A DNA stretch of 62,806 nt, taken from the NCBI GenBank assembly GCA_050015075.1, contig JBEKCB010000032.1:1-62806 (forward strand), read 5' to 3'. The notes below the pieces were generated by a model. It was not told the DNA's origin. It did not search any database and saw only the letters and a program-made list of their open reading frames with translations. This document shows positions 5,657 through 61,870 of this stretch, in pieces. The translations under genes and the position numbers were made by a program. Within the stretch, counting starts at the first letter, position 1. Each line of letters starts with the position of its first letter. Origin of the DNA: Candidatus Brocadiia bacterium. GTDB taxonomy: Bacteria; Planctomycetota; Brocadiia; CAIUPP01.

Positions 5657-6760
5657 GTGATTAAACGCGTCATCTGCGTCGTCGCGCTGCTGCTCCTTTG
5701 CACCATCGGCCACTTCACGATCTCCCATACCGAGACGACCTGGCACGAGTTCCTCTTCAAGGTGACCTACGTGCCGATCATTCTCGCCGCGCTGTGGTTC
5801 GGCGTGAGAGGCGGGCTGGTGACTTCGGTGGTCACGAGTGCGCTCTATCTTGTGCACGTGCAGCGGCACTTCGGCGGGCATTTCCTTTCGATGAACCTGG
5901 GGTACACGCTCGACATCGTGCTTTACAACGGCATCGCCCTCGTCACGGGCCTGCTGTCGCAGGCGCAGGTGCGGGCGCGGAAGCGCGCGGAGCGCCTGGC
6001 CGAAGAGCAGGCCTCGCTGCGGCGCGAACTGGAGGCGTCGTATCAAACCCTTCAGCGGCAGACCGAGGAGCTTCTCGAAGTCTCGGAACAATTGCGGCGG
6101 TCGGAGCGTCTCGCGGCGCTGGGAGAGCTGACCGCAAGCATCGCCCACGAAATCCGCAATCCGCTCGGCGGTATTTCCGGCGCGGCGGAGATCGTCGGGC
6201 GCGAGGGCGTCGCGCCCGAGGTGCGCGCGGAGTTCAGCGATATCCTCCGCAAGGAGACCGCCCGCCTCAACCAGGCCGTGCAGAACATCCTCAGCTTCGC
6301 GCGCGGCCGGAAGTCGGAGGTCCGGGAAACGGACCTCGGCGAAATCGCCCATCGCGTCGTGCGGCTCGTCGCCCGCGAAGCGCAACAGCACTCCGTCTCC
6401 ATCGTGCAGGAAGTCCCGGCCGGGCTTCGGATCGAGACGGACCCGCTGCTCATCGAGCACATCCTGCTCAACCTGATCCTCAACGCGGTGCAGGCGATGC
6501 CGGCCGGCGGCGCCGTCACGCTCTCGGCGCGGAACCCGGCGCCCGGTTCCGTGGCGCTGACGGTCCGCGACACCGGCCCGGGCATCCCGGCCGAAGTCCA
6601 GGCGCAGATGTTCAAGCCGTTCTTCACCACCAAGCCCGGCGGCACCGGCCTCGGGCTGGCCATCGCGCGGCGCATCGCGCACGGCCTCGGCGGCGAAATC
6701 CGCCTGCGGTCCGAGCCCGGCCAAGGGGCCGAGTTCACTTTGGAAATCCCGGCAAAATGA
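5657..6760 (+). CDS. Membrane sensor histidine kinase (NtrB-like)
   Basis: N-terminal TM helices; AHEIRNPL H-box, NLILNA N-box, DTGPG and FFTTK..GTGLGL. Confidence 0.92.
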   Translation: MIKRVICVVALLLLCTIGHFTISHTETTWHEFLFKVTYVPIILAALWFGVRGGLVTSVVTSALYLVHVQRHFGGHFLSMNLGYTLDIVLYNGIALVTGLLSQAQVRARKRAERLAEEQASLRRELEASYQTLQRQTEELLEVSEQLRRSERLAALGELTASIAHEIRNPLGGISGAAEIVGREGVAPEVRAEFSDILRKETARLNQAVQNILSFARGRKSEVRETDLGEIAHRVVRLVAREAQQHSVSIVQEVPAGLRIETDPLLIEHILLNLILNAVQAMPAGGAVTLSARNPAPGSVALTVRDTGPGIPAEVQAQMFKPFFTTKPGGTGLGLAIARRIAHGLGGEIRLRSEPGQGAEFTLEIPAK

Positions 6761-13907: not shown

Positions 13908-14015
13908 GCTGTAATTCTAACGCGAAGGCAACCCGAATCGCAACGTCTCGACGGGACCGGCGCGCGAAAGGCAGTCTTCAGGACGGACGGCTGCGGCAAG
14001 GGACCGCCCTTGCCC

Positions 14016-14083
14016 TGAACATGGATTCGGGCGTTCCGCGATCTCCCGGCTTGGGATTCCAGGTTCGAGTCCTAGATGCTCAG
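14016..14083 (+). pseudogene. Degenerate tRNA-like sequence (Gln-like 3' end)
   Basis: T-arm CCAGG-TTCGAGT-CCTAG; 3' strand ATGCTCA-G pairs 6/7 with TGAACAT at 14016; D and anticodon arms non-canonical. Confidence 0.35.
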
Positions 14084-14159
14084 TTTCTCATTCCGGTCAA
14101 ACCTGGCCTTTGAGATGGTCGTGGCAACCGACGCCAAGGCAGGTCATGCTTCCCGGAAC

Positions 14160-14984
14160 TCAGGGATCACAACCTCTTTTCACATTCTCGGCAAGGATCT
14201 CCCCGGCGCCAGAAAGCCAGATCCTCCAAGCCGGCTCGAAGTCCTTCTGGTCTATCCCTGCCGTCCGGAATACGTCGCCATCAGCGCATGTTGACACTAT
14301 GCGCCGGATGGTATCGCGTCCATAATAGGACCCCATGAACATCACCAGCGTCCAGCCCCAGACATATGCATCCTTTACGGCCTTGCGCGGCAACGGACCA
14401 TCGCCATCGGGCACCACATCAATTTCAACGAGCGCGGGAACGTGATTGGCGGCAACGCAACGACGAACCTCCTCCAATTCCGGCGAGTCGCGCCAATGGT
14501 CGGACAGGTACATCGCAAGCCCCTCGCTCCACCACCGGCGCACCGCCTCGCAGTTGGGAGAGAGGTACTCCTCAACGATATGGGTGGCCTCGTGGGCGAT
14601 CAGCCGGCGGTAGTCTTCCGGCGAATAGGTGTTGTAGTCCTTCTCCCACACGCGAGGCGACAGGACGACCAGATCGGTGCGCTGGGGTAGAGCTATGCGC
14701 GAGGGACGCGACGGCACCTCAATCTCTATTTGGAGCACCTCGCGCACACACCGGTCGAACTCTGGGCGGTTGGGTGTCAGGATTAACCGCACCGGAGGAA
14801 ACGCCTCCGTCAGGCCGAAGTATTCACACAGAGACTTAAGCGCCGCCCCAAGGGCATTGCAAGTTTCCTGGACGAACGGCTCGTCCTCACCCGTGTATTC
14901 CATGAGTAGCTCGGCGAGGCGTATAGTGTGGTACTCAGGGTCGCTTTGGCCTGCTCGGAACTGCGTGTATTCAGGGGACACCAT
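14160..14984 (-). CDS. Putative zinc metallopeptidase (gluzincin / peptidase MA-like)
   Basis: AHEATH HExxH followed by WWSEGLAMY; start 14984 or 14999 lies just after repeat module A. Confidence 0.65.
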   Translation of the reverse strand: MVSPEYTQFRAGQSDPEYHTIRLAELLMEYTGEDEPFVQETCNALGAALKSLCEYFGLTEAFPPVRLILTPNRPEFDRCVREVLQIEIEVPSRPSRIALPQRTDLVVLSPRVWEKDYNTYSPEDYRRLIAHEATHIVEEYLSPNCEAVRRWWSEGLAMYLSDHWRDSPELEEVRRCVAANHVPALVEIDVVPDGDGPLPRKAVKDAYVWGWTLVMFMGSYYGRDTIRRIVSTCADGDVFRTAGIDQKDFEPAWRIWLSGAGEILAENVKRGCDP

Positions 14985-15005
14985 GCTCTCACCATACATA
15001 ATTAA

Positions 15006-15212
15006 TCTGGGTTTCCCATTTGACCGTCCTTCCGAGGACAATCCGCACGCAAACATGAAATTCTACGCTTAGAGTGCCTGCAGTCAATTGCTTTTTCGGT
15101 TGTTCTGGAAAACGATACGCCCACGCGCGTCCTTTGTGCGCCAAATGGGAACAATAAGCCGGAGCGGTTTGTCAACCGACCTATTTGGCCAAGGGTTTGC
15201 TTCAGCCGAACC
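15006..15212 (-). repeat. Repeat module copy A (upstream core, promoter, hairpin, terminal motif)
   Basis: -35 TTGACT 15087-15082, N16, -10 TAGAAT 15065-15060, N16, hairpin 15043-15022, then AAATGGGAAACCCAGA. Confidence 0.8.
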
Positions 15213-15265
15213 TCGCCTCAAAGGCGTTGTCGGCCGGCCGCGTGCTATTCTTCGCCTGCCACGAT

Positions 15266-15826
15266 TCAAGCGCCGCTGGCAGCACTGTATCTTATGGCAT
15301 GCATCTGTCTGGTCATGACCATCCTGCATACGTCCGTCGCAGTGTCGTCCCGGTCGAACCCAAGCGAGCGGAGCAGGTGCTGTCCAAGCAGATTGTCGAC
15401 GGCAACATCGTCGGTCATCAGGCGCCCTCCAACTCGACCAAAGAAAAATGCGAGCAGCGCCAGAATTGCATCTTTCGCATAACCGTGACCACGCTGCGTG
15501 GCAACAACCTTGACATTCAGAACGGCAGATCGTTCCTTCGAATCCCACCGATGAAAGCTAATCTCTCCGATGGGTGTATGATCCTGAGTGAAGATGAGGC
15601 AGTAGCAGTTTGCCGGGCCGCCGGGTGCTACCATATGTGTGAACCACTCTCTTGCCTTCGGCTCAGGGAACTCCACGGGGCCGCCAACCAAGGCCATGGT
15701 CTCCAGATCGCCCCAGAGCGCGCGGATGAAGGATAGCTCATCGAGATGTGGAAGCCTGAGATAGACCTTCCGTCCATGGAGGACTTCATTCGATGCGAGA
15801 TGGTTGCTCGGTCCTGTATCGTTCAT
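15266..15826 (-). CDS. GNAT acetyltransferase (RimJ/RimL-like)
   Basis: V.LR, PIGEISF, QRGHGYAKDAI and N.....L.SLGF motifs. Confidence 0.85.
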   Translation of the reverse strand: MNDTGPSNHLASNEVLHGRKVYLRLPHLDELSFIRALWGDLETMALVGGPVEFPEPKAREWFTHMVAPGGPANCYCLIFTQDHTPIGEISFHRWDSKERSAVLNVKVVATQRGHGYAKDAILALLAFFFGRVGGRLMTDDVAVDNLLGQHLLRSLGFDRDDTATDVCRMVMTRQMHAIRYSAASGA

Positions 15827-15833
15827 GTTTCAG

Positions 15834-15985
15834 CCGGGATTTGCCATTTGACCGTTCTCGAAAGTACAGTCTGCATTCGAAAATCAGATTGTACGCTGAA
15901 GGCGCTCGGTGTCAAGCGGTTTCACGGCCTTCAGGAAAGCGGCACGCCCAGGAGTTGCCCTCGCGCGTTTGATTGGAAGAAATGT
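15834..15985 (-). repeat. Repeat module copy E
   Basis: -35 TTGACA 15915-15910, N16, -10 TACAAT 15893-15888, N16, TTCG-loop hairpin 15871-15850, then AAATGGCAAATCCCGG; GNAT ATG follows within 10 nt. Confidence 0.8.
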
Positions 15986-16029
15986 GTCGGTCAAAGACGC
16001 GGTTGCAAGGGCTGCATAATGCCTGATAC

Positions 16030-16200
16030 AAATCTTCGGGGAATTGTCCGTCAAAATATGCGTAAGCCGATATTCTGTAATAGGATACGCCCGCGCGCGT
16101 TCCTCGCGCGCCTGACTGGAACGAGAAGCCGAAGTGGTTTATCGTGGGACCTATTTGGGCACGCCCTCGCTCCCGTCGAACGTCGCCGTCCTGATGATCG
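16030..16200 (-). repeat. Repeat module copy B (promoter decayed, no gene attached)
   Basis: Core aligns without gaps to copy A over about 110 nt; TTGACG at 16054-16049 but no good -10, hairpin or terminal motif. Confidence 0.7.
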
Positions 16201-16247
16201 CCTCGAAGAGGCAAAAGAGAGAGAACTTCCGCTGTTATCTCCTGATC

Positions 16248-16487
16248 CTACCGGGTCTGGAAGACCAGAAGATACGGAACAGCCTTGTGCCCGTCGGTGT
16301 CCGTGAAGCTGGTGTATGGCGGGGAGTTGAGCCAGATAACGTACGTCTTCTTCGGCTCAAGCTTGACGTCCACCCCACAGGTCTTCTTGTCCTCCAGATA
16401 CCTGGGCTTCCCTACGATCTGGGGGAATGTGTCCTTCGATATCTGCACCCAGGCCCAATTCCCGTCCGTCATCGGCTTGCTGAATAT
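16248..16487 (-). pseudogene. 5'-truncated Ig-like (Big/SbsA-like) domain fragment
   Basis: FSKPMTDGNWAW...GKPRY..DKKTC.V.VKLEPKKTY.IWLNS...PYLLVFQT; lacks an N-terminus and begins right after the -10 of module C. Confidence 0.55.
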
Positions 16488-16620
16488 AGATTTTACGCTC
16501 AAATTCGTAGCGGTCAAGAGGTTCCCCGGCTCTCCTGGAAAACGACATGCCCACGCGCCCCTCGCGCGCCTGACGAGAATAATTGAGCTGAGGTGTTTGC
16601 CGAATGGCCGATGTGGCCGG
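16488..16620 (-). repeat. Repeat module copy C
   Basis: -35 TTGACC 16517-16512, N16, -10 TAAAAT 16495-16490; core CTCCTGGAAAACGACATGCCCACGCGC on the plus strand; hairpin and terminal motif absent. Confidence 0.75.
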
Positions 16621-16681
16621 CCGTGGTTGAAGCGGATTCCGCGCTGGGACGGCGCTGGAGAGATCGCCGACGAATCGCCGG

Positions 16682-17944
16682 TCAACGCGGCGACGCCGCC
16701 GGCTCGGCTTCGACGACGACGCGGAATTTCTGGCCGGCGTAGCCCTTCTCCGTGATGAACTCATGCGTGCCGATGGACCATTGCGGCTGGAGAATGCCCC
16801 GGCCGCTGCGCTGGACCTGGGCGGCGTCGCCGGCGGGCGGCGGGTAATACGGGTCCGTTTCGCTGTGGCGCGCGTTGTACATGCCGCGGTCGCCGGTGAT
16901 TTCCCACCAGCAACTGGGCATGTCGTACAGCCCCCAGGCATTCGGCTGCCGCGATTTTACCGTCAGCGGCGCCTTGAAACCGCCGTCGCCGCCGCTGAAC
17001 TGGTCCTTGTACTTCTCCTGGAAGCCGGGGTTTGAGGTGCCGACGCGGGCGACGTATTCCCACTCGGCGTCGGTCGGCAGGCGGACCTTCCGCGAGTTTT
17101 TCTCCGAGAGCCGCTTGCAGAATTCCTCGATGTCGGCGAAACGCGGATCCTGGACCGGAAGCTGCGGGTCCTTGACCGTGCTGGGATTGACGCCCATGAC
17201 CGCCTGGTATATTTCTTGCGTCACCGGAATTTCGGCCATGTAGAACGGGCGCGTCAGCGTCACGGCGTGCGGATACTCTTCCACGAAATACGGCCACATG
17301 TAGAACGGCGTGCCCATCAGAAATTTCCCGGGCGGGATGCACACGCACTTCAGCGTCAGCCTGTCGGTGATGCGGAGGATCAGCGGCTCGCGGCCGGGCC
17401 GGACGAAAGGAACGTCCGGCGCGAGCATTCTGTCCGGGTACTTGAGGTGGGCCGGCTCGATCCGGGCGGCGGTGAGCCACCGCTTGCCGTCCTTCAGGGC
17501 GACGACGCCGGTCACGGCGCTGGCTGTGGCGGGCATGCAGTAATGGTTCGGCGGGCGGTTCTTGTCGTCCTTCAGGGCGGGGCTGTCGCGAGGGATGTAG
17601 TACTTCAACCGAGCGGTGAACTGGTCCATCAGCTCTTGCGCGGCATCGGCGTCGAGGCCCTTGTCCGGGTAGAATTTGGCCATGATTTTCTCCACCTCGG
17701 CCCGGACTTCCGGCGTGCCGTCAATGGCATAGAGGACCAGGAGATGATCGTCGGGCTTGGGATCGGCGATGCAGGCGCCGTTGCAGACCAGGCTGCCCTT
17801 GAGCGTGACCTCAACGCCGCCCGGCAGCGCTTCCGCCGCGGGAGCGCTTCGCGCCCAAACGGCGCAGCCGAGCGCGGCGAGAACCACCGTCCAAGCACAG
17901 GCCTTCGCAAGCACGTTCGGCTCTTGCAAGCCGGAATTTCCCAT
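16682..17944 (-). CDS. Secreted FGE-sulfatase (SUMF1/EgtB/PvdO) domain protein
   Basis: IPPG.F.MG, RLPTDAEWEYVAR and PNAWGLYDM motifs; hydrophobic signal-like N-terminus; start uncertain (ATG 17944 or a nearby GTG). Confidence 0.8.
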   Translation of the reverse strand: MGNSGLQEPNVLAKACAWTVVLAALGCAVWARSAPAAEALPGGVEVTLKGSLVCNGACIADPKPDDHLLVLYAIDGTPEVRAEVEKIMAKFYPDKGLDADAAQELMDQFTARLKYYIPRDSPALKDDKNRPPNHYCMPATASAVTGVVALKDGKRWLTAARIEPAHLKYPDRMLAPDVPFVRPGREPLILRITDRLTLKCVCIPPGKFLMGTPFYMWPYFVEEYPHAVTLTRPFYMAEIPVTQEIYQAVMGVNPSTVKDPQLPVQDPRFADIEEFCKRLSEKNSRKVRLPTDAEWEYVARVGTSNPGFQEKYKDQFSGGDGGFKAPLTVKSRQPNAWGLYDMPSCWWEITGDRGMYNARHSETDPYYPPPAGDAAQVQRSGRGILQPQWSIGTHEFITEKGYAGQKFRVVVEAEPAASPR

Positions 17945-18160
17945 TGGGCTGTCCGCCAAAGGACAGTCGAGTTGCAAGCAGGAGATTGTACTCTCGAATT
18001 GTCCGGTGTCAATCAGCTTCTCGGCTGTTCTGGAAAACGACACGCCGATGCGCGGCCCGCAAGCGTCTGACTGCGGTGAGAATCCCGAGTGGTCTTGGTT
18101 TTCCCAGTGACCGATATGACCAAGTTCTCATTCCTGTCGAACCCGGTCGCCGTGATGATC
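17931..18160 (-). repeat. Repeat module copy D
   Basis: -35 TTGACA 18012-18007, N16, -10 TACAAT 17990-17985, N16, hairpin 17968-17947, then CAATGGGAAATTCCGG. Confidence 0.8.
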
Positions 18161-18403
18161 CGGCGCAGCAGGTCATGACGATGCGCATCGAATCACTGGG
18201 AAAACGAGGTCTGGCCCAATACCCCGAATCTGTCCAAGCTCGGCAACACGTGTTGACGCCGTTAAACACTCGCACGACGTTATGCCATCGTCGTCAACGA
18301 AAACCTCGAAACGGATATTCAGACGCTGGAACTAAACGCCTTCGTGGTAACAGGTTACGGACCGGCGGGACCGGATACGATTTGTGCGCGTTTTAGTTAC
18401 AAG

Positions 18404-18418
18404 TGGAATGATATTTGC
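18404..18418 (+). promoter_or_regulatory. Putative sigma54 (-24/-12) promoter of the PEP-CTERM gene
   Basis: TGGAATGATATTTGC = GG-N10-GC; GTAAC-AG-GTTAC palindrome about 50 nt upstream. Confidence 0.5.
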
Positions 18419-18485
18419 CGTGCCGTTCAACGGAGGCTCTTTATGCAGGCGCATTGGGGCGGTTTCTTTTCAGGAGGGGGGGGGC

Positions 18486-19508
18486 ATGAGTGAAATGCGG
18501 GGAATTCGCAGGTACGGGGTATGGCTGCTGGCCGTCGCGGCGCTGATTGGAGTTGTCCAGACTCGAACGGCGCTGGGTGTTCCGACGCTCTCGTCGCCTT
18601 ACAGCGCGGATTACACTCTGCTTGACCTGGGAGCAGTGCCGGGACTTTCGACGCCTTACGGGGGACTGACTCTCCTGTCCGGCGATCTCAACACGCTGTT
18701 GATTGGCGGCAGCGCCAATACAACGAGCGGCACGATTGATTCGATCAGTGTTGTGCGCGGCGCGGGAAACCATATCACCGGGTTCTCGGGCACCGCGACG
18801 CAGTATTCGACGGCGCCGGGCATCACCTCGGGCGGGATTGACGGCGGATTGGACTATGCGCCGAACGGCGACCTGTTCTACACGAGCTATTCTGACAACA
18901 GCATCGGCGAAATCAAGCCTGGCAGCACGTCGCCGGACAAGCAAGTGGCTCTGACTCCGCTCGGGATTGCGAGTTCGGTCGGCAGCTTGCTATTCGTGCC
19001 GGCCGGCCAACCGGGCGCGGGTGACCTGAAAGTGGTCTCTTACAACGGGAACGTCTGGTACAATGTTCCCTTCACTTCGGATGGGTCGGGAACGTACAAT
19101 CTCAGCGCGCCCACGACGACGGTTTCCATCACCGGCGGCCCTGAGGGCGTCCTTTACGTGCCATCAGGTTCGACCGACTTTTCAACGTCAAGCATTCTGC
19201 TGTCCGAGTACGGCGCGGGTGCTGTGCAGGCGTGGCAGGTAGATGCGAACGGCGACCCGATCGTCGGCACCAACGTGGACTTCATCACGGGACTGTCGGG
19301 CGCGGAAGGGGCCTTCCTCGATCCGGAAACGGGCGACTTCTTATTCTCGACGTTCGGCGGTGGCAACCAGGTGTACGAAGTGCAAGGATTCGTTGCTCCG
19401 GCGCCGCCTCCTTCGGGAGGAGTCCCGGAGCCGGCGACTGTGACGTTGCTCGGCATCGGCCTGGCCGGTCTGATCGGGCGACGGATGCGGAGGCGTAACG
19501 GCAATTAG
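18486..19508 (+). CDS. PEP-CTERM sorting domain surface protein
   Basis: Signal peptide, Gly/Ser/Thr-rich body, C-terminal VPEPATVTLLGIGLAGLIGRRMRRR; AGGAGG RBS. Confidence 0.9.
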   Translation: MSEMRGIRRYGVWLLAVAALIGVVQTRTALGVPTLSSPYSADYTLLDLGAVPGLSTPYGGLTLLSGDLNTLLIGGSANTTSGTIDSISVVRGAGNHITGFSGTATQYSTAPGITSGGIDGGLDYAPNGDLFYTSYSDNSIGEIKPGSTSPDKQVALTPLGIASSVGSLLFVPAGQPGAGDLKVVSYNGNVWYNVPFTSDGSGTYNLSAPTTTVSITGGPEGVLYVPSGSTDFSTSSILLSEYGAGAVQAWQVDANGDPIVGTNVDFITGLSGAEGAFLDPETGDFLFSTFGGGNQVYEVQGFVAPAPPPSGGVPEPATVTLLGIGLAGLIGRRMRRRNGN

Positions 19509-19756
19509 CCGGAGTCGGGATTCAATTGATTCGCGTTCGCGCCGCGCGGTGTCTTCCTGAGAGACAGCGCGCGGCGCGTCTGTTTTAATAATACAGTTTT
19601 GCAGGAAATCTCGCTCCGTTGCAGGTCCGGCGCCCTCGCCCGACGGCCTTTTCAACAGCCCCGGAGTTCTGGGGATACCATACCCAACTCATTCTTCTAA
19701 TCGCGTATCTCCTCGGAGTTCCCTGAGTCTCGTGTACTTTATAGCGAACCGTTGAC

Positions 19757-23182: not shown

Positions 23183-24583
23183 ATGTACGAAATCACGATG
23201 CCGAAGCTTTCCGACAGCATGCAGGAGGGCAAGATCATCGCGTGGAAGGTCAAGCCCGGCGCCCGCGTCCGCGAGGGCGACGTGCTGGCCGAGGTCGAGT
23301 CGGACAAAGCGACGATGGAACTGGAGTGCTTCCACAGCGGTGTTCTGTCGAAGATCGTCCACGGCGACGGGAGCGAAGTGCCCGTCGGCGAGGTCATCGG
23401 CTATATTGACGCGGAAGCGAAGGGCGCCGAGCCGGAAAAACAGCGGGCAACCGCTGAACCGCCCGAGCAGAAGGCCGCACCGAAGGAGAAAGCCCCGCAG
23501 GCTCCGAAAGCGCCCGCGCCGCAACCTGCTCCGGTGACGGCAACCGCCGAACTGCCCCCGCAAAAGCCCGCACCGAAGGAAAAAGTCCCGGCAGCTCCGA
23601 AAGCGCCCGCGCCGCAGCCTGCTCCGGCGACGCCAGGCGCCGAGCCGCGAGCCGCCGCTTCGCCTCGCGCGCGCAAGCTGGCGCAGGAAAAAGGAATTGA
23701 CCTGGGCCAGGTCAAAGGCACCGGCCCCGGCGGACGGATCATCGCGCAGGATATCGAGGCGCTCTCGCCGGGTCGCGCGTCGCCGGCGGAGAAACCCTCC
23801 GCTGCGCCGGTGCGTCAGGCGGCTGAACCACCGCCGGCGGAAACCCGTCCTGCGATCAAGCCGTCGCCCGACGAGGAACTGCCGGCCATTGACGTGACCG
23901 AGGATGAGGCCGAAGTCGTCGAGGCCGCGTACCGGCTGAAGACGCAGGCGCGCCGCGTGACCGCCGCCAAGCACGTCATCCCGCACTTCTACATCACGCG
24001 CAGCATAGACGTCACGCGCCTCTTCGCCCGGAAAGAGGAACTCAAGCAGAAATACGGCGCGACGATCACGCATCTCGTCATGCTCGCCGCCCTGAAGGCG
24101 CTGAAATTGCATCCCGAGGCCAACCGGAGCTATGACCGCGGCAGGATCATCAAGTGGAAGGGGATCAATCTGGGCCTGGCCGTGGACACCGACGAAGGGC
24201 TCACCGTCGCGGTTATTCGGAACGCGCAGGCGCTTTCGCTCGAGCAAATCGTCGAGCGCACCCGCGCGCTGGTCGAGAAGGCGCGGTCGGGAAAGCTGTC
24301 GCCGGAGGAGCGCCGCCATCCGACCTTCACCGTCAGCAGCCTGGGCATGTTCGACGTGGAGCAATTCGAGCCGATCATCAACCCGCCGTCCGCCATCACG
24401 CTGGCCGTAGCCTCCGCGCTCGCCGCGCCGGTCGTGAAGGGGGACAAGATCGAGGTCGGCCGCGTGATGAAACTGACGCTCTCCTGCGACCACCGAATCA
24501 TTGACGGCGTCACCGCCGCGAAGTTTCTCGGCGAGTTGAAACGGCTGCTGGAGAACGACGAGGAACTGCTGGCGGAAAACTAG
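23183..24583 (+). CDS. pdhC: Dihydrolipoamide acetyltransferase E2
   Basis: Lipoyl domain (EVESDKA), Pro/Ala/Lys linker, ASPRARKLA binding domain and catalytic DHRIIDG. Confidence 0.92.
   Translation: MYEITMPKLSDSMQEGKIIAWKVKPGARVREGDVLAEVESDKATMELECFHSGVLSKIVHGDGSEVPVGEVIGYIDAEAKGAEPEKQRATAEPPEQKAAPKEKAPQAPKAPAPQPAPVTATAELPPQKPAPKEKVPAAPKAPAPQPAPATPGAEPRAAASPRARKLAQEKGIDLGQVKGTGPGGRIIAQDIEALSPGRASPAEKPSAAPVRQAAEPPPAETRPAIKPSPDEELPAIDVTEDEAEVVEAAYRLKTQARRVTAAKHVIPHFYITRSIDVTRLFARKEELKQKYGATITHLVMLAALKALKLHPEANRSYDRGRIIKWKGINLGLAVDTDEGLTVAVIRNAQALSLEQIVERTRALVEKARSGKLSPEERRHPTFTVSSLGMFDVEQFEPIINPPSAITLAVASALAAPVVKGDKIEVGRVMKLTLSCDHRIIDGVTAAKFLGELKRLLENDEELLAEN
23447..23632 (+). repeat. 93-bp imperfect tandem duplication in the E2 linker
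   Basis: ATAEPPEQKAAPKEKAPQAPKAPAPQPAPVT / ATAELPPQKPAPKEKVPAAPKAPAPQPAPAT. Confidence 0.85.
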
Positions 24584-60651: not shown

Positions 60652-60739
60652 TATTTGGCTTTGCAACTGGCTGGCCATGCCGTACCTACGACAAACCGTT
60701 CCGGCTCCTCTTTCCGATCATGCGCGCGAAGGAGACTTT

Positions 60740-61870
60740 ATGAATGGACGCGAGCGCCTTCACAGCATTCTCAACCGCAAGCCGGTTGATCGGCTCTCCT
60801 GGGCCACACTGGTTGACAGCCAGACGATGTCGCTCATGCCCGAGCCGGAACGGGCGATGACGCCCTGGGAATTCTACCGGCGAATCGGGTGCGACGTGAT
60901 GCAGTTCGGCGGGTACGGTCTGTCGGAAGAGTTCCGGGCGCCGCTGCCGGCGCGCCCCGTCTGGCCGGAAAGGACCATCGAGCGCACGGAGCAGCTCGAC
61001 GGCACGGTTGTGGTGACCAACAAGACTCCCTGGGGCACACTGGTTTCGGCCTCGCGCAACGGCCATCCGGTCAAGTCGTCGGTCGAAACGCTCGGAGATA
61101 TGCGCGTGTTGCGGAGCATGTGGGAGCACATGCGCTATGAGGAAGTCCCCGGACATGAGGAGAGTTTCCGTCGCGCCGAGGCGCTCATCGGCGACTACGG
61201 CATGTACCTGCCAACACTCGATCCTTCACCTGTCCAGCAGTTGATCGAGGTGGACATGGGTGCGGCGAACTTTTACTACCTTCTGCAAGACGCGCCGGAG
61301 GAGATGGAGGCGCTGCTCGGCGTCATGCACGAACGGCGCAAGCAGGAGTATGAAATCGTCGCGCGCCGTACCCCCGCCGAAGCGGTCATCCCGGTCGAGA
61401 ATACCAGCTCGACCCTGACCAGTCCGGCCATCTATGAGCGCCACAGCCTGCCGCAGATCCGCGATTACTGCGCCATCATGCACCGGCGCGGAAAGAAGGT
61501 GGTCCTGCACATGTGCGGCCTGCTGCGAAACCTGCTGCCGATCGTACGCCGCACCGGCTGCGACGGTTACAACGCGACCACACCGCCGACGGTGGGCGAT
61601 ACAACGTTCGACGTTGCCCTGGATACTCTCGGCGAGGAGGCGGTGCTCTTCGGCGGAATCTTCAACCCGAACGTCTTCCAGAAGCCGGGCGTCACGTGCG
61701 AGGAGATACGGGCGGAGTTGGATCGGCTTTACACGCCGCGCATCCGCCGCGCGAACCTGCTCCTCTGGCTCGGCGCGGACGGGTTGCCGACGCCTCTGGA
61801 GAGGTTCCTCTGGGTCGGGGAATGGATGGACGAGAATGCCGATTTGCGAAGTTCACGCGACGCGGGTTAA
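60740..61870 (+). CDS. URO-D / MtaA-CmuA family protein
   Basis: MNGRERL......PVDRL, SP..YE...LP and LHMCG motifs; AGGAG RBS. Confidence 0.7.
   Translation: MNGRERLHSILNRKPVDRLSWATLVDSQTMSLMPEPERAMTPWEFYRRIGCDVMQFGGYGLSEEFRAPLPARPVWPERTIERTEQLDGTVVVTNKTPWGTLVSASRNGHPVKSSVETLGDMRVLRSMWEHMRYEEVPGHEESFRRAEALIGDYGMYLPTLDPSPVQQLIEVDMGAANFYYLLQDAPEEMEALLGVMHERRKQEYEIVARRTPAEAVIPVENTSSTLTSPAIYERHSLPQIRDYCAIMHRRGKKVVLHMCGLLRNLLPIVRRTGCDGYNATTPPTVGDTTFDVALDTLGEEAVLFGGIFNPNVFQKPGVTCEEIRAELDRLYTPRIRRANLLLWLGADGLPTPLERFLWVGEWMDENADLRSSRDAG

What the first reader, a model, noticed from the sequence alone, without database searches (positions are those of the whole stretch)
15006..18012. Strictly conserved geometry of promoter, hairpin and terminal motif; possible IS1380/ISEcp1-type right ends
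Seen: copies A, E, C and D all have TTGAC(T/A/C)-exactly 16 nt-TA(G/C/A)AAT. In A, E and D a 22-nt hairpin starts exactly 16 nt after the -10 (GATTGTCCT-CGGA-AGGACGGTC; GACTGTACT-TTCG-AGAACGGTC; GACTGTCC-TTTGGC-GGACAGCC). It is followed by AATGG(G/C)AAA(T/C)(T/C)C(C/A)G(G/A), after which homology stops abruptly. Established: ISEcp1 (IS1380 family) carries an outward TTGAAA/TACAAT promoter just inside IRR and captures and expresses downstream genes by one-ended transposition. Inference from recall only: the terminal 15-mer (plus strand CCGG(A/G)ATTT(C/G)CCATT) looks like an IS1380-type IRR. Tandem stacking of several transposase-free right ends would be unusual. The alternative is a new cis-regulatory 5' leader RNA.
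Basis: partly seen in the sequence, partly recalled or inferred. Interest (0 to 1): 0.75.

Follow-up and report, generated by a model that had tools for sequence, protein, structure and literature searches.

The report
Reused promoter-leader modules, not IS ends
The repeats are copies of a promoter plus short leader that this bacterium places in front of many unrelated genes, and the leader ends in a sequence box that also occurs in other bacterial phyla and matches no curated RNA family.

Summary
On the minus strand, four copies carry TTGAC(H)-16 nt-TA(V)AAT (4 found, 0.01 expected). Three of them have a 22-nt hairpin starting 16 nt after the -10, followed by the AATGG(S)AAA... box (3 found, 0.01 expected).

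They are not IS1380 ends. The genome has no IS1380 transposase over cut-off. There is no inverted partner of the box. Neighbouring copies lie in direct orientation in front of ordinary genes.

The copies belong to a family of about 80 promoter-leader modules in this genome. Many have a ~100-nt upstream piece (U, 41 copies). The modules sit upstream of functionally diverse genes, and about half of those genes look exported. The one congeneric genome searched also has them. None was found, by a strict pattern, in 39 further genomes of the same family, order and class. Between the two congeners, modules are gained, lost or swapped in front of orthologous genes.

The terminal box (core TGGGAAATCCCGG), preceded by a covarying hairpin, also lies just downstream of -10 boxes in other Planctomycetota (22 of 151 sampled), Verrucomicrobiota and Anaerolineales. 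Rfam 15 has no match.

Best reading: a portable sigma-70 promoter fused to a cis-acting 5' leader RNA element. Its mechanism is not established.

The parts
15003..15245 (-). Copy A, a full module (U + promoter + hairpin + box). -35 at 15082-15087, -10 at 15060-15065, hairpin at 15022-15043, box at 15006-15020. It drives the gene at 14160-14984.
   Evidence: (E 2.3e-66)
15828..15991 (-). Copy E, promoter + hairpin + box with a short piece of U. Promoter at 15888-15915, hairpin at 15850-15871, box at 15834-15848. The reading frame from the box's ATG reads MANPG then stop, and the GNAT start codon follows 3 nt later.
   Evidence: (E 1.1e-41)
15999..16211 (-). Copy B, the U piece followed by a second promoter-like subtype (TTGACG). 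It lies in tandem upstream of copy E.
   Evidence: (E 8.2e-49)
16465..16644 (-). Copy C, U + promoter (16490-16517) without hairpin or box. It is joined 5 nt after the -10 to the inside of a gene that is longer in the sister genome.
   Evidence: (E 4.1e-42)
17927..18173 (-). Copy D, a full module. Promoter at 17985-18012, hairpin at 17947-17968, box at 17931-17945. It lies upstream of the FGE-sulfatase-domain gene.
   Evidence: (E 3.6e-64)
14071..14120 (-). A partial 5' end of a U piece, just after the last gene of the array.
   Evidence: family D5: 70% identity to 18111-18160, the reference copy being 14071-14120
14160..14984 (-). Gene behind copy A. It has a weak Peptidase_MA_2 match (25.1 bits, below the cut-off of 32.4).
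15266..15826 (-). Gene behind copy E, a GNAT acetyltransferase.
   Evidence: Acetyltransf_3, 8.8e-11
16248..16472 (-). A 74-codon frame behind copy C. It is the 3' remnant of a longer gene present in G001.
16682..17944 (-). Gene behind copy D, an FGE-sulfatase domain protein with a signal-peptide-like N-terminus. In G001 its ortholog lies on another contig, also behind a U-promoter-hairpin module.

Best explanation
Each repeat is a portable expression module with three separable parts.

- U: an upstream piece of about 100 nt with a GC-only hairpin.
- P: a near-consensus sigma-70 promoter.
- H: a short 5' leader, made of a hairpin followed by a conserved box (core TGGGAAATCCCGG), lying 0-100 nt before the ribosome-binding site of whatever gene follows.

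Shown:
- The genome holds about 80 P(+H) copies and 41 U copies, in front of unrelated genes, about half of which look exported.
- Between two species of the genus, modules are present or absent, or replaced by another promoter subtype, in front of orthologous genes.
- Homology between the genomes resumes at the box or at the foot of the hairpin.
- The hairpin-plus-box element recurs in distant phyla, directly downstream of -10 boxes, with compensatory changes in the stem.

Inferred:
- Transcription starts about 6-7 nt after the -10, so the hairpin lies at the very 5' end of the mRNA.
- The element acts in the RNA, on the sense strand, as a cis-acting leader. The hairpin presents the single-stranded box to a trans-acting factor, a protein or possibly a small ligand, which sets mRNA stability or translation of the downstream gene.
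- The modules spread by recombination between copies, together with the accessory genes they serve, and not by transposition.
For: Family size and modularity.
- An nhmmer profile built from the 5 window copies finds 77 places in the genome's own contigs at E<1e-3.
- A promoter+leader profile finds 80 at E<=1e-3 and 45 at E<=1e-10.
- A U profile finds 41.
- At least three promoter subtypes follow U.

Lineage.
- A 24-mer with up to 3 mismatches hits 19 times in G000 and 15 times in the congener G001. It hits 0 times in 39 other genomes of the family, order and class. The reversed control hits 0 times.

Genes served.
- 75 downstream proteins match 111 Pfam families, and no family has more than 3 members.
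- 38 of 79 have a signal-peptide-like N-terminus by a crude rule, against 561 of 4,296 long ORFs.
- An ORF of 200 aa or more starts within 300 nt downstream in 62 of 80 copies. The figure is 34 of 80 in the antisense direction and 58% at random places.

Turnover between the congeners.
- Window 13973-16184 (two genes, copies A, E and B) is missing from the syntenic G001 locus.
- Window 16485-19756 is replaced there by other DNA.
- The FGE gene with its module lies on another G001 contig.
- Two orthologous genes carry different promoter subtypes in the two genomes, with homology resuming at the box or near the start codon.
- One ortholog keeps the hairpin and box but has no promoter module.
- In four 20-kb regions, 2 of 19 module sites lie wholly inside blocks of 84% identity or more. 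Those blocks cover 62% of the DNA.

Cross-phylum element.
- The exact 20-mer occurs in 27 public loci. I read 15 of them as non-coding and preceded by promoter-like boxes, in Verrucomicrobiae, Sedimentisphaerales, Phycisphaerae, Planctomycetaceae, Anaerolineales and Brocadiia.
- A covariance model built from 9 seeds finds it in 22 of 151 sampled genomes of the phylum.
- On 82 distinct hits, the 6-bp stem pairs in 93.8% of cells. There are 46 double-change cells against 8.9 in shuffles (0 of 500 reach it). Slid controls pair in 37-46% of cells.
- The sense strand folds better than the antisense strand in 46 against 21 copies (G000) and 48 against 29 (cross-phylum set).

No known family.
- Rfam gives 0 matches over gathering on the window and on 20 foreign loci.

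Real DNA.
- Contigs from four further peat metagenome runs cover the array with 0 mismatches. No single contig spans all of it.
Against: - No expression data exist. All 24 public runs that hold the stretch are DNA, so the transcription start and the RNA itself are inferred.
- Folded singly, the window's hairpins are not more stable than shuffles, with z-scores of -1.49, -0.16 and +0.39.
- Within G000, the stem shows mostly conservation and few double changes, and 80-88% of cells pair.
- The cross-phylum pair counts come from an alignment fitted to the model, and about half of its rows have gaps in the stem columns.
- The box is not uniformly maintained. In the FGE ortholog of G001 it has decayed more than its surroundings. 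In another ortholog pair, hairpin and box differ at 1 of about 52 positions, against about 87% identity overall.
- The box is a near-palindrome (GGGA-AA-TCCC) and marks the junction of promoter swaps, which would also suit a DNA site.
- No trans-acting partner was identified.
- The element is patchy. In the phylum of G424, 8 of 151 genomes match, and 7 of those with a single weak hit.
Confidence: 0.55

Rival explanations
1. IS1380/ISEcp1-type right ends. The box is an IRR, the promoter is the outward promoter of the element, and the array arose by one-ended transposition.
For: An outward-facing consensus promoter lies just inside an abrupt end of homology. The box is identical in distant phyla, as the ends of a widely transferred element could be. 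Genes behind the modules differ between the congeners.
Against: - No IS1380 transposase passes the cut-off in the genome (31.4 bits against 180).
- No inverted copy of the box lies upstream.
- Pairs within 5 kb are 10 direct, 1 outward and 0 inward, and the outward pair encloses an open frame that I read by eye as a GDSL/SGNH-type hydrolase.
- In other phyla only the hairpin architecture and the box are shared. The promoter and hairpin sequences differ, which is unlike transfer of one element.
- One ortholog keeps the hairpin and box after an upstream gene, with no promoter module.
- The plasmid collection has no match.
Confidence: 0.03
2. The box works in DNA. It would be an operator for a dimeric DNA-binding protein sitting at about +30 to +50 (a shared repressor or roadblock), or the core site of a site-specific recombinase that exchanges promoter modules.
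For: The core is a near-palindrome, GGGA-AA-TCCC, extended in many copies to TCA-N3-GGGAAATCCC-N3-TGA. In two ortholog pairs with different promoter subtypes, homology resumes at the box or just downstream of it. Modules lie at the edges of synteny blocks.
Against: - The neighbouring hairpin covaries and contains many G-U pairs, and the sense strand folds better than the antisense strand. This fits RNA or a single strand, not duplex DNA.
- Orientation is always the same relative to the promoter.
- No integron integrase passes the cut-off. The best match is 85 bits against 265, as for ordinary tyrosine recombinases in all 14 control genomes.
- No cognate protein was identified.
- Because the box is the only part shared between promoter subtypes, alignments would resume there wherever the crossover took place.
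Confidence: 0.15
3. The box is a five-codon mini-gene (ATG GGA AAT CCC GGN stop, peptide MGNPG). It is preceded by the GGAGGA in the hairpin and loads ribosomes for translational coupling to the gene behind it.
For: In G000, GGAGGA lies 7 nt before the ATG of the box. Of 62 copies, 35 have ATG there, and 16 have a stop directly after the fifth codon. Of 15 foreign non-coding copies with the exact 20-mer, 9 have a stop at codon 6, as I read them by eye. The stop is often followed at once by a ribosome-binding site.
Against: - 27 of 62 G000 copies lack ATG at that place. They carry ATA, ACG, CTG, AAG and others.
- In the commonest foreign form the triplet is CTG, CCG or ATA, not ATG.
- Third codon positions (GGA, AAT, CCC) are as conserved as the first two, which points to selection on the nucleotides.
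- The distance and reading frame to the main start codon vary.
Confidence: 0.12
4. There is no function beyond the promoter. The hairpin and box would be inherited baggage of a recently amplified promoter region.
For: Within G000 the stem shows few compensatory changes. The box has decayed in the FGE ortholog of G001. Copy C works as a promoter fusion without any hairpin or box, if it is expressed at all.
Against: The same box, behind non-homologous hairpins and promoters, occurs in several phyla, far above chance (27 loci for an exact 20-mer; 22 of 151 genomes). The stem covaries. In G000, the information content in the box is as high as in the -10.
Confidence: 0.1

Closest known systems
Putative mobile promoters / promoter reuse in prokaryotes (Mob Genet Elements 2012, PMC3575422; only the search listing and the start of the abstract were seen)
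   Same: Highly similar promoter regions lie upstream of non-homologous genes within one genome. They rewire the expression of neighbouring genes, and no transposase is attached.
   Different: Here the reused unit is composite (U + promoter + structured leader). The family has about 80 diverged copies (65-90% identity), not near-identical ones. Its leader ends in a box shared with other phyla. Whether that study's data set contains this family is unknown.
ISEcp1 / IS1380-family ends with an outward promoter
   Same: A strong outward promoter close to an abrupt end of homology, with varied genes downstream.
   Different: There is no IS1380 transposase, no inverted repeat partner and no element body. 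The copies are direct and lie in ordinary intergenic regions.
Small cis-regulatory leader RNA motifs found by comparative genomics (Rfam-type motifs), including the uncurated 'Rhodopirellula-1' candidate of Weinberg et al. 2010 (PMC2864571; only its row in Table 1 was seen)
   Same: A short hairpin plus a conserved single-stranded stretch in 5' leaders, many copies per genome, and a covarying stem. 'Rhodopirellula-1' is listed as probably cis-regulatory, from Proteobacteria and Planctomycetes, and has no Rfam number.
   Different: None of 4,227 Rfam models matches. Unlike most riboswitches, the genes served have no common theme.
Integron gene-cassette arrays
   Same: There is a tandem row of small, unrelated, co-oriented genes separated by a repeated element. 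Gene content differs between close relatives.
   Different: There is no integron integrase over cut-off. The repeat carries a promoter and lies 5' of each gene. Read by eye, no canonical attC core sites are present. Modules are also scattered singly over 30 or more contigs.
REP/REPIN elements with RAYT transposases
   Same: Short, hairpin-containing intergenic repeats in tens of copies.
   Different: Y1_Tnp genes do not track the element: G000 has 2, G001 has 0, and the motif-free G002 has 6. Orientation is strictly tied to the downstream gene, and a promoter is part of the unit.

Membership tests
IS1380 / ISEcp1-type insertion sequence end | An IS1380-family DDE transposase in the element or elsewhere in the genome | tested here: not met
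   Model NF033539 on the whole genome (93.6% complete) gives 0 matches over the 180-bit cut-off and one fragment of 31.4 bits, on contig 7.
IS1380 / ISEcp1-type insertion sequence end | Terminal inverted repeats (an IRL matching the IRR) | tested here: not met
   The best reverse-complement match 45-450 nt upstream scores a mean of 7.42, against 7.27 in random DNA. At up to 5 kb there are 10 direct, 1 outward and 0 inward pairs among 62 copies. The outward pair encloses an open frame read by eye as a GDSL/SGNH-type hydrolase.
IS1380 / ISEcp1-type insertion sequence end | The terminal sequence resembles known IS1380 inverted repeats | not testable with these tools
   ISfinder is not available. 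A blastn search of copy D against 72,556 plasmid records found nothing.
IS1380 / ISEcp1-type insertion sequence end | Target-site duplication flanking the insertion | tested here: inconclusive
   The junctions of the 2.2-kb G000-specific segment (13973, 16184) and of the FGE segment were compared with G001. They show only short, ambiguous repeats, such as a 7-nt repeat at 16674.
Mobile / reused promoters | Homologous promoter sequence upstream of non-homologous genes in one genome | tested here: met
   There are 80 copies at E<=1e-3. 75 downstream proteins fall into 111 Pfam families, none with more than 3 members.
Mobile / reused promoters | Presence, absence or replacement at orthologous loci in related genomes | tested here: met
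   Orthologous genes carry different promoter subtypes, or no module, in G001. 2 of 19 module sites lie wholly inside synteny blocks.
Any curated RNA family (Rfam 15) | A score at or above the family's gathering threshold | tested here: not met
   There are 0 matches on the window and on 20 foreign loci. In E-value mode on 14900-18300 there are only two unrelated matches, far below threshold.
Structured cis-regulatory RNA (generic) | A conserved secondary structure supported by compensatory changes | tested here: met
   The 6-bp stem pairs in 93.8% of cells, 5 of 6 pairs show changes on both sides, and there are 46 double-change cells against 8.9 in shuffles. Caveat: the alignment was fitted to the model. 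A proposed pseudoknot was not supported, with 60.9% of cells paired.
Structured cis-regulatory RNA (generic) | Transcribed as part of the 5' UTR, with an effect on expression | not testable with these tools
   No RNA run is listed among the 24 holders. No reporter data exist.
Integron cassette array | An integron integrase (IntI) | tested here: not met
   Model TIGR02249 on the genome gives a best match of 85 bits against a cut-off of 265.
REP/REPIN with RAYT | Co-occurrence with a Y1 (HUH) transposase | tested here: not met
   PF01797 matches: G000 2, G001 0, G002 6, G003 3. The motif is present only in G000 and G001.
ops/JUMPstart-type antitermination site (RfaH/LoaP) | A specialised NusG paralog in the genome | tested here: not met
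   PF02357 gives one match each in G000 and G001.
Invertible promoter (inverton) | Inverted repeats flanking the promoter | tested here: not met
   There is no enrichment of the reverse-complemented box upstream of the promoter.

The most novel reading that the evidence does not exclude
The hairpin plus the TGGGAAATCCCGG box is a previously uncurated class of 5'-leader RNA element. It is shared by Planctomycetota, Verrucomicrobiota and Anaerolineales. It is read by a conserved trans-acting factor or ligand, and it places dozens of otherwise unrelated, largely secreted accessory genes under one post-transcriptional control. In this genus it has been fused to a promoter and amplified into a self-contained expression cassette that accompanies gene gain and promoter replacement.
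Probability: 0.35. Interest if true: 0.8.

Novelty: new variant of a known kind. Interest (0 to 1): 0.62.

Why it matters
If the reading holds, this peat-dwelling planctomycete shows how a genome can equip newly acquired or reshuffled genes with a ready-made promoter and leader.

- About 80 genes share one expression signal, and the signal turns over faster than the genes themselves. This is a concrete, analysable case of promoter reuse on a large scale.
- The leader's terminal box, with its covarying hairpin, recurs in three phyla that are rich in secreted hydrolases and matches no curated RNA family. It is therefore a testable candidate for a new regulatory RNA in lineages where almost no post-transcriptional regulation has been described.
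- For annotation, the module is a direct marker of transcription-unit starts in these genomes.

Tried and rejected
- Inverton (a promoter flanked by inverted repeats): no enrichment of the reverse-complemented box upstream.
- Specialised NusG/RfaH-type antitermination: only one NusG gene in G000 and G001.
- RAYT/REP link: Y1_Tnp counts do not follow the motif.
- Integron: no IntI over cut-off.
- CsrA target: CsrA is found in 4 of 5 motif-bearing genomes. This does not discriminate, and motif-free relatives were not compared.
- Pseudoknot between the 5' flank and the hairpin loop: 60.9% of cells paired and 2 double changes, so not supported.
- Outer helices in G000 (GTTTGA/TCAAAT and AGCCG/CGGCT): paired in 51-83% of cells per column pair, without covariation. 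Left open.
- -1 frameshift site (G GGA AAT): rejected by eye. Many copies carry GGC AAA, and the frame to the main gene varies.
- Coding explanation of the box: 9 of the 27 exact 20-mer loci lie inside fabG-like genes of cyanobacteria and Chloroflexi (peptide GQMGNPGQANY). These are coincidences and were left out.
- Expression data: no RNA holder is listed among 24 runs. The look-up of sequencing runs was unreachable four times before that.
- Reads laid from four runs are contigs only. They break at the repeats and show no informative joints.
- 16S rRNA for a complementarity check: not present in the assembly.
- Plasmid collection: no match.
- Literature: no paper holds the box as a string (4 strings) or the peptide MGNPG in this sense (1 unrelated hit). 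One search failed on a syntax error and was not repeated.

Full report
**1. What is in the window**

All features lie on the minus strand and precede minus-strand genes.

- Copy A (15003-15245) precedes a gene with a weak peptidase-MA match.
- Copy E (15828-15991) precedes a GNAT acetyltransferase.
- Copy B (15999-16211) has only the upstream part and lies in tandem in front of E.
- Copy C (16465-16644) precedes a 74-codon frame.
- Copy D (17927-18173) precedes an FGE-sulfatase-domain protein.

- The promoter pattern matches 4 times, against 0.01 expected.
- The terminal motif matches 3 times, against 0.01 expected.
- The four sites are the best sigma-70-like sites of the region.
- The hairpin starts 16 nt after the -10 in A, E and D.
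- A 50-nt piece resembling the 5' end of the upstream part also follows the last gene, at 14071-14120.
- Folded alone, the three hairpin regions are not unusually stable, with z-scores of -1.49, -0.16 and +0.39.

**2. The copies belong to a genome-wide family**

The window is contig 32 of a 4.64-Mb assembly of 66 contigs, 93.6% complete.

- A profile of the five copies finds 77 places at E<1e-3, on more than 30 contigs.
- The hits are modular. They comprise an upstream piece U (about 100 nt, with a GC-only hairpin; 41 copies), a promoter P, and a leader H made of hairpin plus box.
- A P+H profile finds 80 copies at E<=1e-3.
- Information content is highest at CTTGAC, at TAnnAT and in the box.
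- U is followed by at least three promoter subtypes, each with its own leader, and all end in a variant of the same box.
- Copies cluster. Within 5 kb there are 10 direct pairs, 1 outward pair and no inward pair.

**3. What lies downstream**

- The 75 downstream proteins outside the window match 111 Pfam families. None has more than 3 members. They include beta-helix and GH42 enzymes, GDSL lipases, MFS transporters, amidase, superoxide dismutase and others.
- By a crude rule, 38 of 79 have a signal-peptide-like N-terminus, against 13% of 4,296 long ORFs.
- A long ORF starts downstream in the sense direction more often (62 of 80) than in the antisense direction (34 of 80) or at random places (58%). 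In a GC-rich genome this is only moderate support.

**4. Not an IS1380 end**

- No IS1380 transposase passes the cut-off.
- There is no inverted partner of the box.
- The only outward-facing pair encloses an open frame that I read by eye as a GDSL/SGNH-type hydrolase. Its own reading frame runs through the box, ending in ...MGNPG followed by a stop.
- The plasmid collection holds nothing similar.
- Integron integrase, Y1 transposases and a second NusG were also sought. They are absent or uncorrelated with the element.

**5. Behaviour between two species of the genus**

A 24-mer spanning the hairpin arm and the box, with up to 3 mismatches, occurs 19 times in G000 and 15 times in G001. It does not occur in 39 other genomes of the same family, order and class. 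The reversed control gives 0.

At the window's locus in G001:
- The flanks are 92-93% identical.
- The G000 segment 13973-16184 (peptidase-like gene, GNAT, copies A, E and B) is missing.
- Segment 16485-19756 is replaced by other DNA.
- The 74-codon frame is the 3' part of a longer gene.
- The FGE gene lies on another contig, behind its own U-P-H module.

Other module-rich regions behave alike.
- A 6.4-kb G000 island with three U-P units is replaced in G001 by an unrelated 1.4 kb.
- A 20-kb stretch of contig 10 maps to seven G001 contigs. Module sites lie in gaps between several of the mapped blocks.
- Of 19 module sites in four 20-kb regions, 2 lie wholly inside blocks of 84% identity or more, and 2 straddle a block edge. 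The blocks cover 62% of the DNA. Two caveats apply: the regions were chosen for being module-rich, and only the returned G001 loci were compared.
- Two orthologous genes carry different promoter subtypes in the two genomes. Homology resumes at the box in one case and near the start codon in the other.
- One ortholog has P+H in G000. In G001 it has only H, directly after the stop codon of the preceding gene. H is therefore separable from P.

Conservation of H between orthologs is mixed.
- In one pair, hairpin and box differ at 1 of about 52 positions, against 87% identity overall.
- In a second pair, identity is about 90%, read by eye.
- In the FGE pair, the box is clearly decayed.

**6. The box is shared across phyla**

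- The exact 20-mer occurs in 27 loci of the species-representative genome collection.
- Nine of these are coincidental matches inside fabG-like genes.
- I read fifteen as non-coding. They lie 33-49 nt after a -10-like box and behind a hairpin of unrelated sequence. They come from records titled Verrucomicrobiae, Sedimentisphaerales, Phycisphaerae, Planctomycetaceae, Anaerolineales and Brocadiia. The Brocadiia record carries a nearly identical full module, so the window's genome is probably a relative. This is an inference from a record title.
- These genomes hold 3-8 copies each at up to 3 mismatches.
- The invariant core is TGGGAAATCCCGG. The triplet before it is ATG in some lineages and CTG, CCG or ATA in others.
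- A common foreign form has a 6-bp stem, a 7-nt loop and a short purine-rich spacer before the box. G000 itself holds several copies of that form.
- A covariance model built from nine seeds of four lineages finds the element in 22 of 151 sampled genomes of the phylum, with up to 10 copies per genome. This is a lower bound, because only 36 candidates per genome were scored.
- In the phylum of G424, 8 of 151 genomes match. Only G424 has several copies.
- A strict 20-mer search found it in 10 of 400 other genomes of the phylum. Some of those are single hits at chance level.

**7. Structure**

- On 82 distinct model hits, the stem pairs in 93.8% of cells.
- Five of its six pairs change on both sides.
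- There are 46 double-change cells against 8.9 in shuffles, and slid controls pair in 37-46% of cells.
- The alignment is fitted to the model, and about half of its rows have gaps in the stem columns, so the figures lean towards the structure.
- The sense strand folds better than the antisense strand in both sets.
- A pseudoknot with the 5' flank was not supported.
- Rfam has no match for the window or for 20 foreign loci.

**8. How it probably works**

Shown:
- a near-consensus promoter at a fixed distance from a conserved hairpin and box;
- the element always in the sense orientation, just upstream of ribosome-binding sites;
- separability of U, P and H;
- turnover faster than that of the genes.

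Inferred:
- The transcript starts a few bases before the hairpin.
- The element acts in the RNA.
- The box, which is single-stranded in most predicted folds, is the contact for a trans-acting factor that sets stability or translation.

The mini-gene reading (MGNPG) fits many G000 copies. It fails in 27 of 62 of them and in the commonest foreign form. A DNA-site reading remains possible, because the box is a near-palindrome and marks swap junctions. No experiment or RNA data set was available. All 24 runs that hold the stretch are DNA from peat or wetland metagenomes. Contigs from four of them cover the array without mismatches.

**9. Comparison with what is known**

- The nearest concept is promoter reuse, or 'putative mobile promoters' (PMC3575422; listing and start of abstract only).
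- The leader element is closest in kind to the small cis-regulatory motifs found by comparative genomics.
- Table 1 of Weinberg et al. 2010 lists an uncurated candidate, 'Rhodopirellula-1' (Proteobacteria and Planctomycetes, probably cis-regulatory, no Rfam number).
- No paper in the library holds the box as a string.

**10. Verdict**

The IS1380 reading is rejected. The leader-RNA alternative is supported in outline, but its function is not shown. The finding is one array of a large family of portable promoter-leader modules. Their leader ends in a cross-phylum element that matches no curated RNA family.

Noticed in passing
window 6718-6760 (+): A further weak match to the cross-phylum hairpin-plus-box model (21.4 bits, E 8.6e-5), with the box variant TTTGGAAATCCCGG. 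It lies on the other strand from the array.
   Followed up: no
window 60668-60742 (+): A partial U piece (U profile E 2e-13) that stops inside the GC hairpin. It is followed at once by a ribosome-binding-like GGAG and an ATG.
   Followed up: no
window 16248-16472 (-) and G001:C45:14273-14572: The 74-codon frame behind copy C is the C-terminal remnant of a longer G001 gene. In G000 the promoter of copy C is fused 5 nt after its -10 to the inside of that gene.
   Followed up: partly
L103:12846-13002 (G000 contig 25): A different repeat of about 160 nt, with two long GC-rich palindromes. It matches six G001 contigs at 84-93% identity. This is a separate REP-like family next to a promoter-leader module.
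   Followed up: no
L075:1417-1528 (Anaerolineales genome G426); G000 contig 25, about 23,548-23,696: Two hairpin-plus-box units in direct tandem behind one promoter. In G000, a unit of the genus-specific form is followed by one of the cross-phylum form.
   Followed up: no
G001:C128, the 1,386 nt between the blocks matching L105:6361 and L105:12801: Where G000 has a 6.4-kb island with three U-promoter units, G001 has an unrelated 1.4-kb insert that looks lower in GC and has two small genes and no modules. This is a variable hotspot.
   Followed up: partly
loci L020, L023, L024, L028, L034, L039, L043, L044, L045: The exact 20-mer also occurs inside fabG-like reductase genes of cyanobacteria and Chloroflexi, coding for GQMGNPGQANY. 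This is a coincidence that any pattern search for the box must filter out.
   Followed up: yes
window 18041-18054 (-), within the U piece of copy D: A short GC hairpin followed by TCGTTTTCC is flagged as terminator-like. U may end transcription from the upstream gene. Only 1 of the 5 window copies is flagged, and the count of terminator-like sites is not above shuffles (3 against 3.9).
   Followed up: partly
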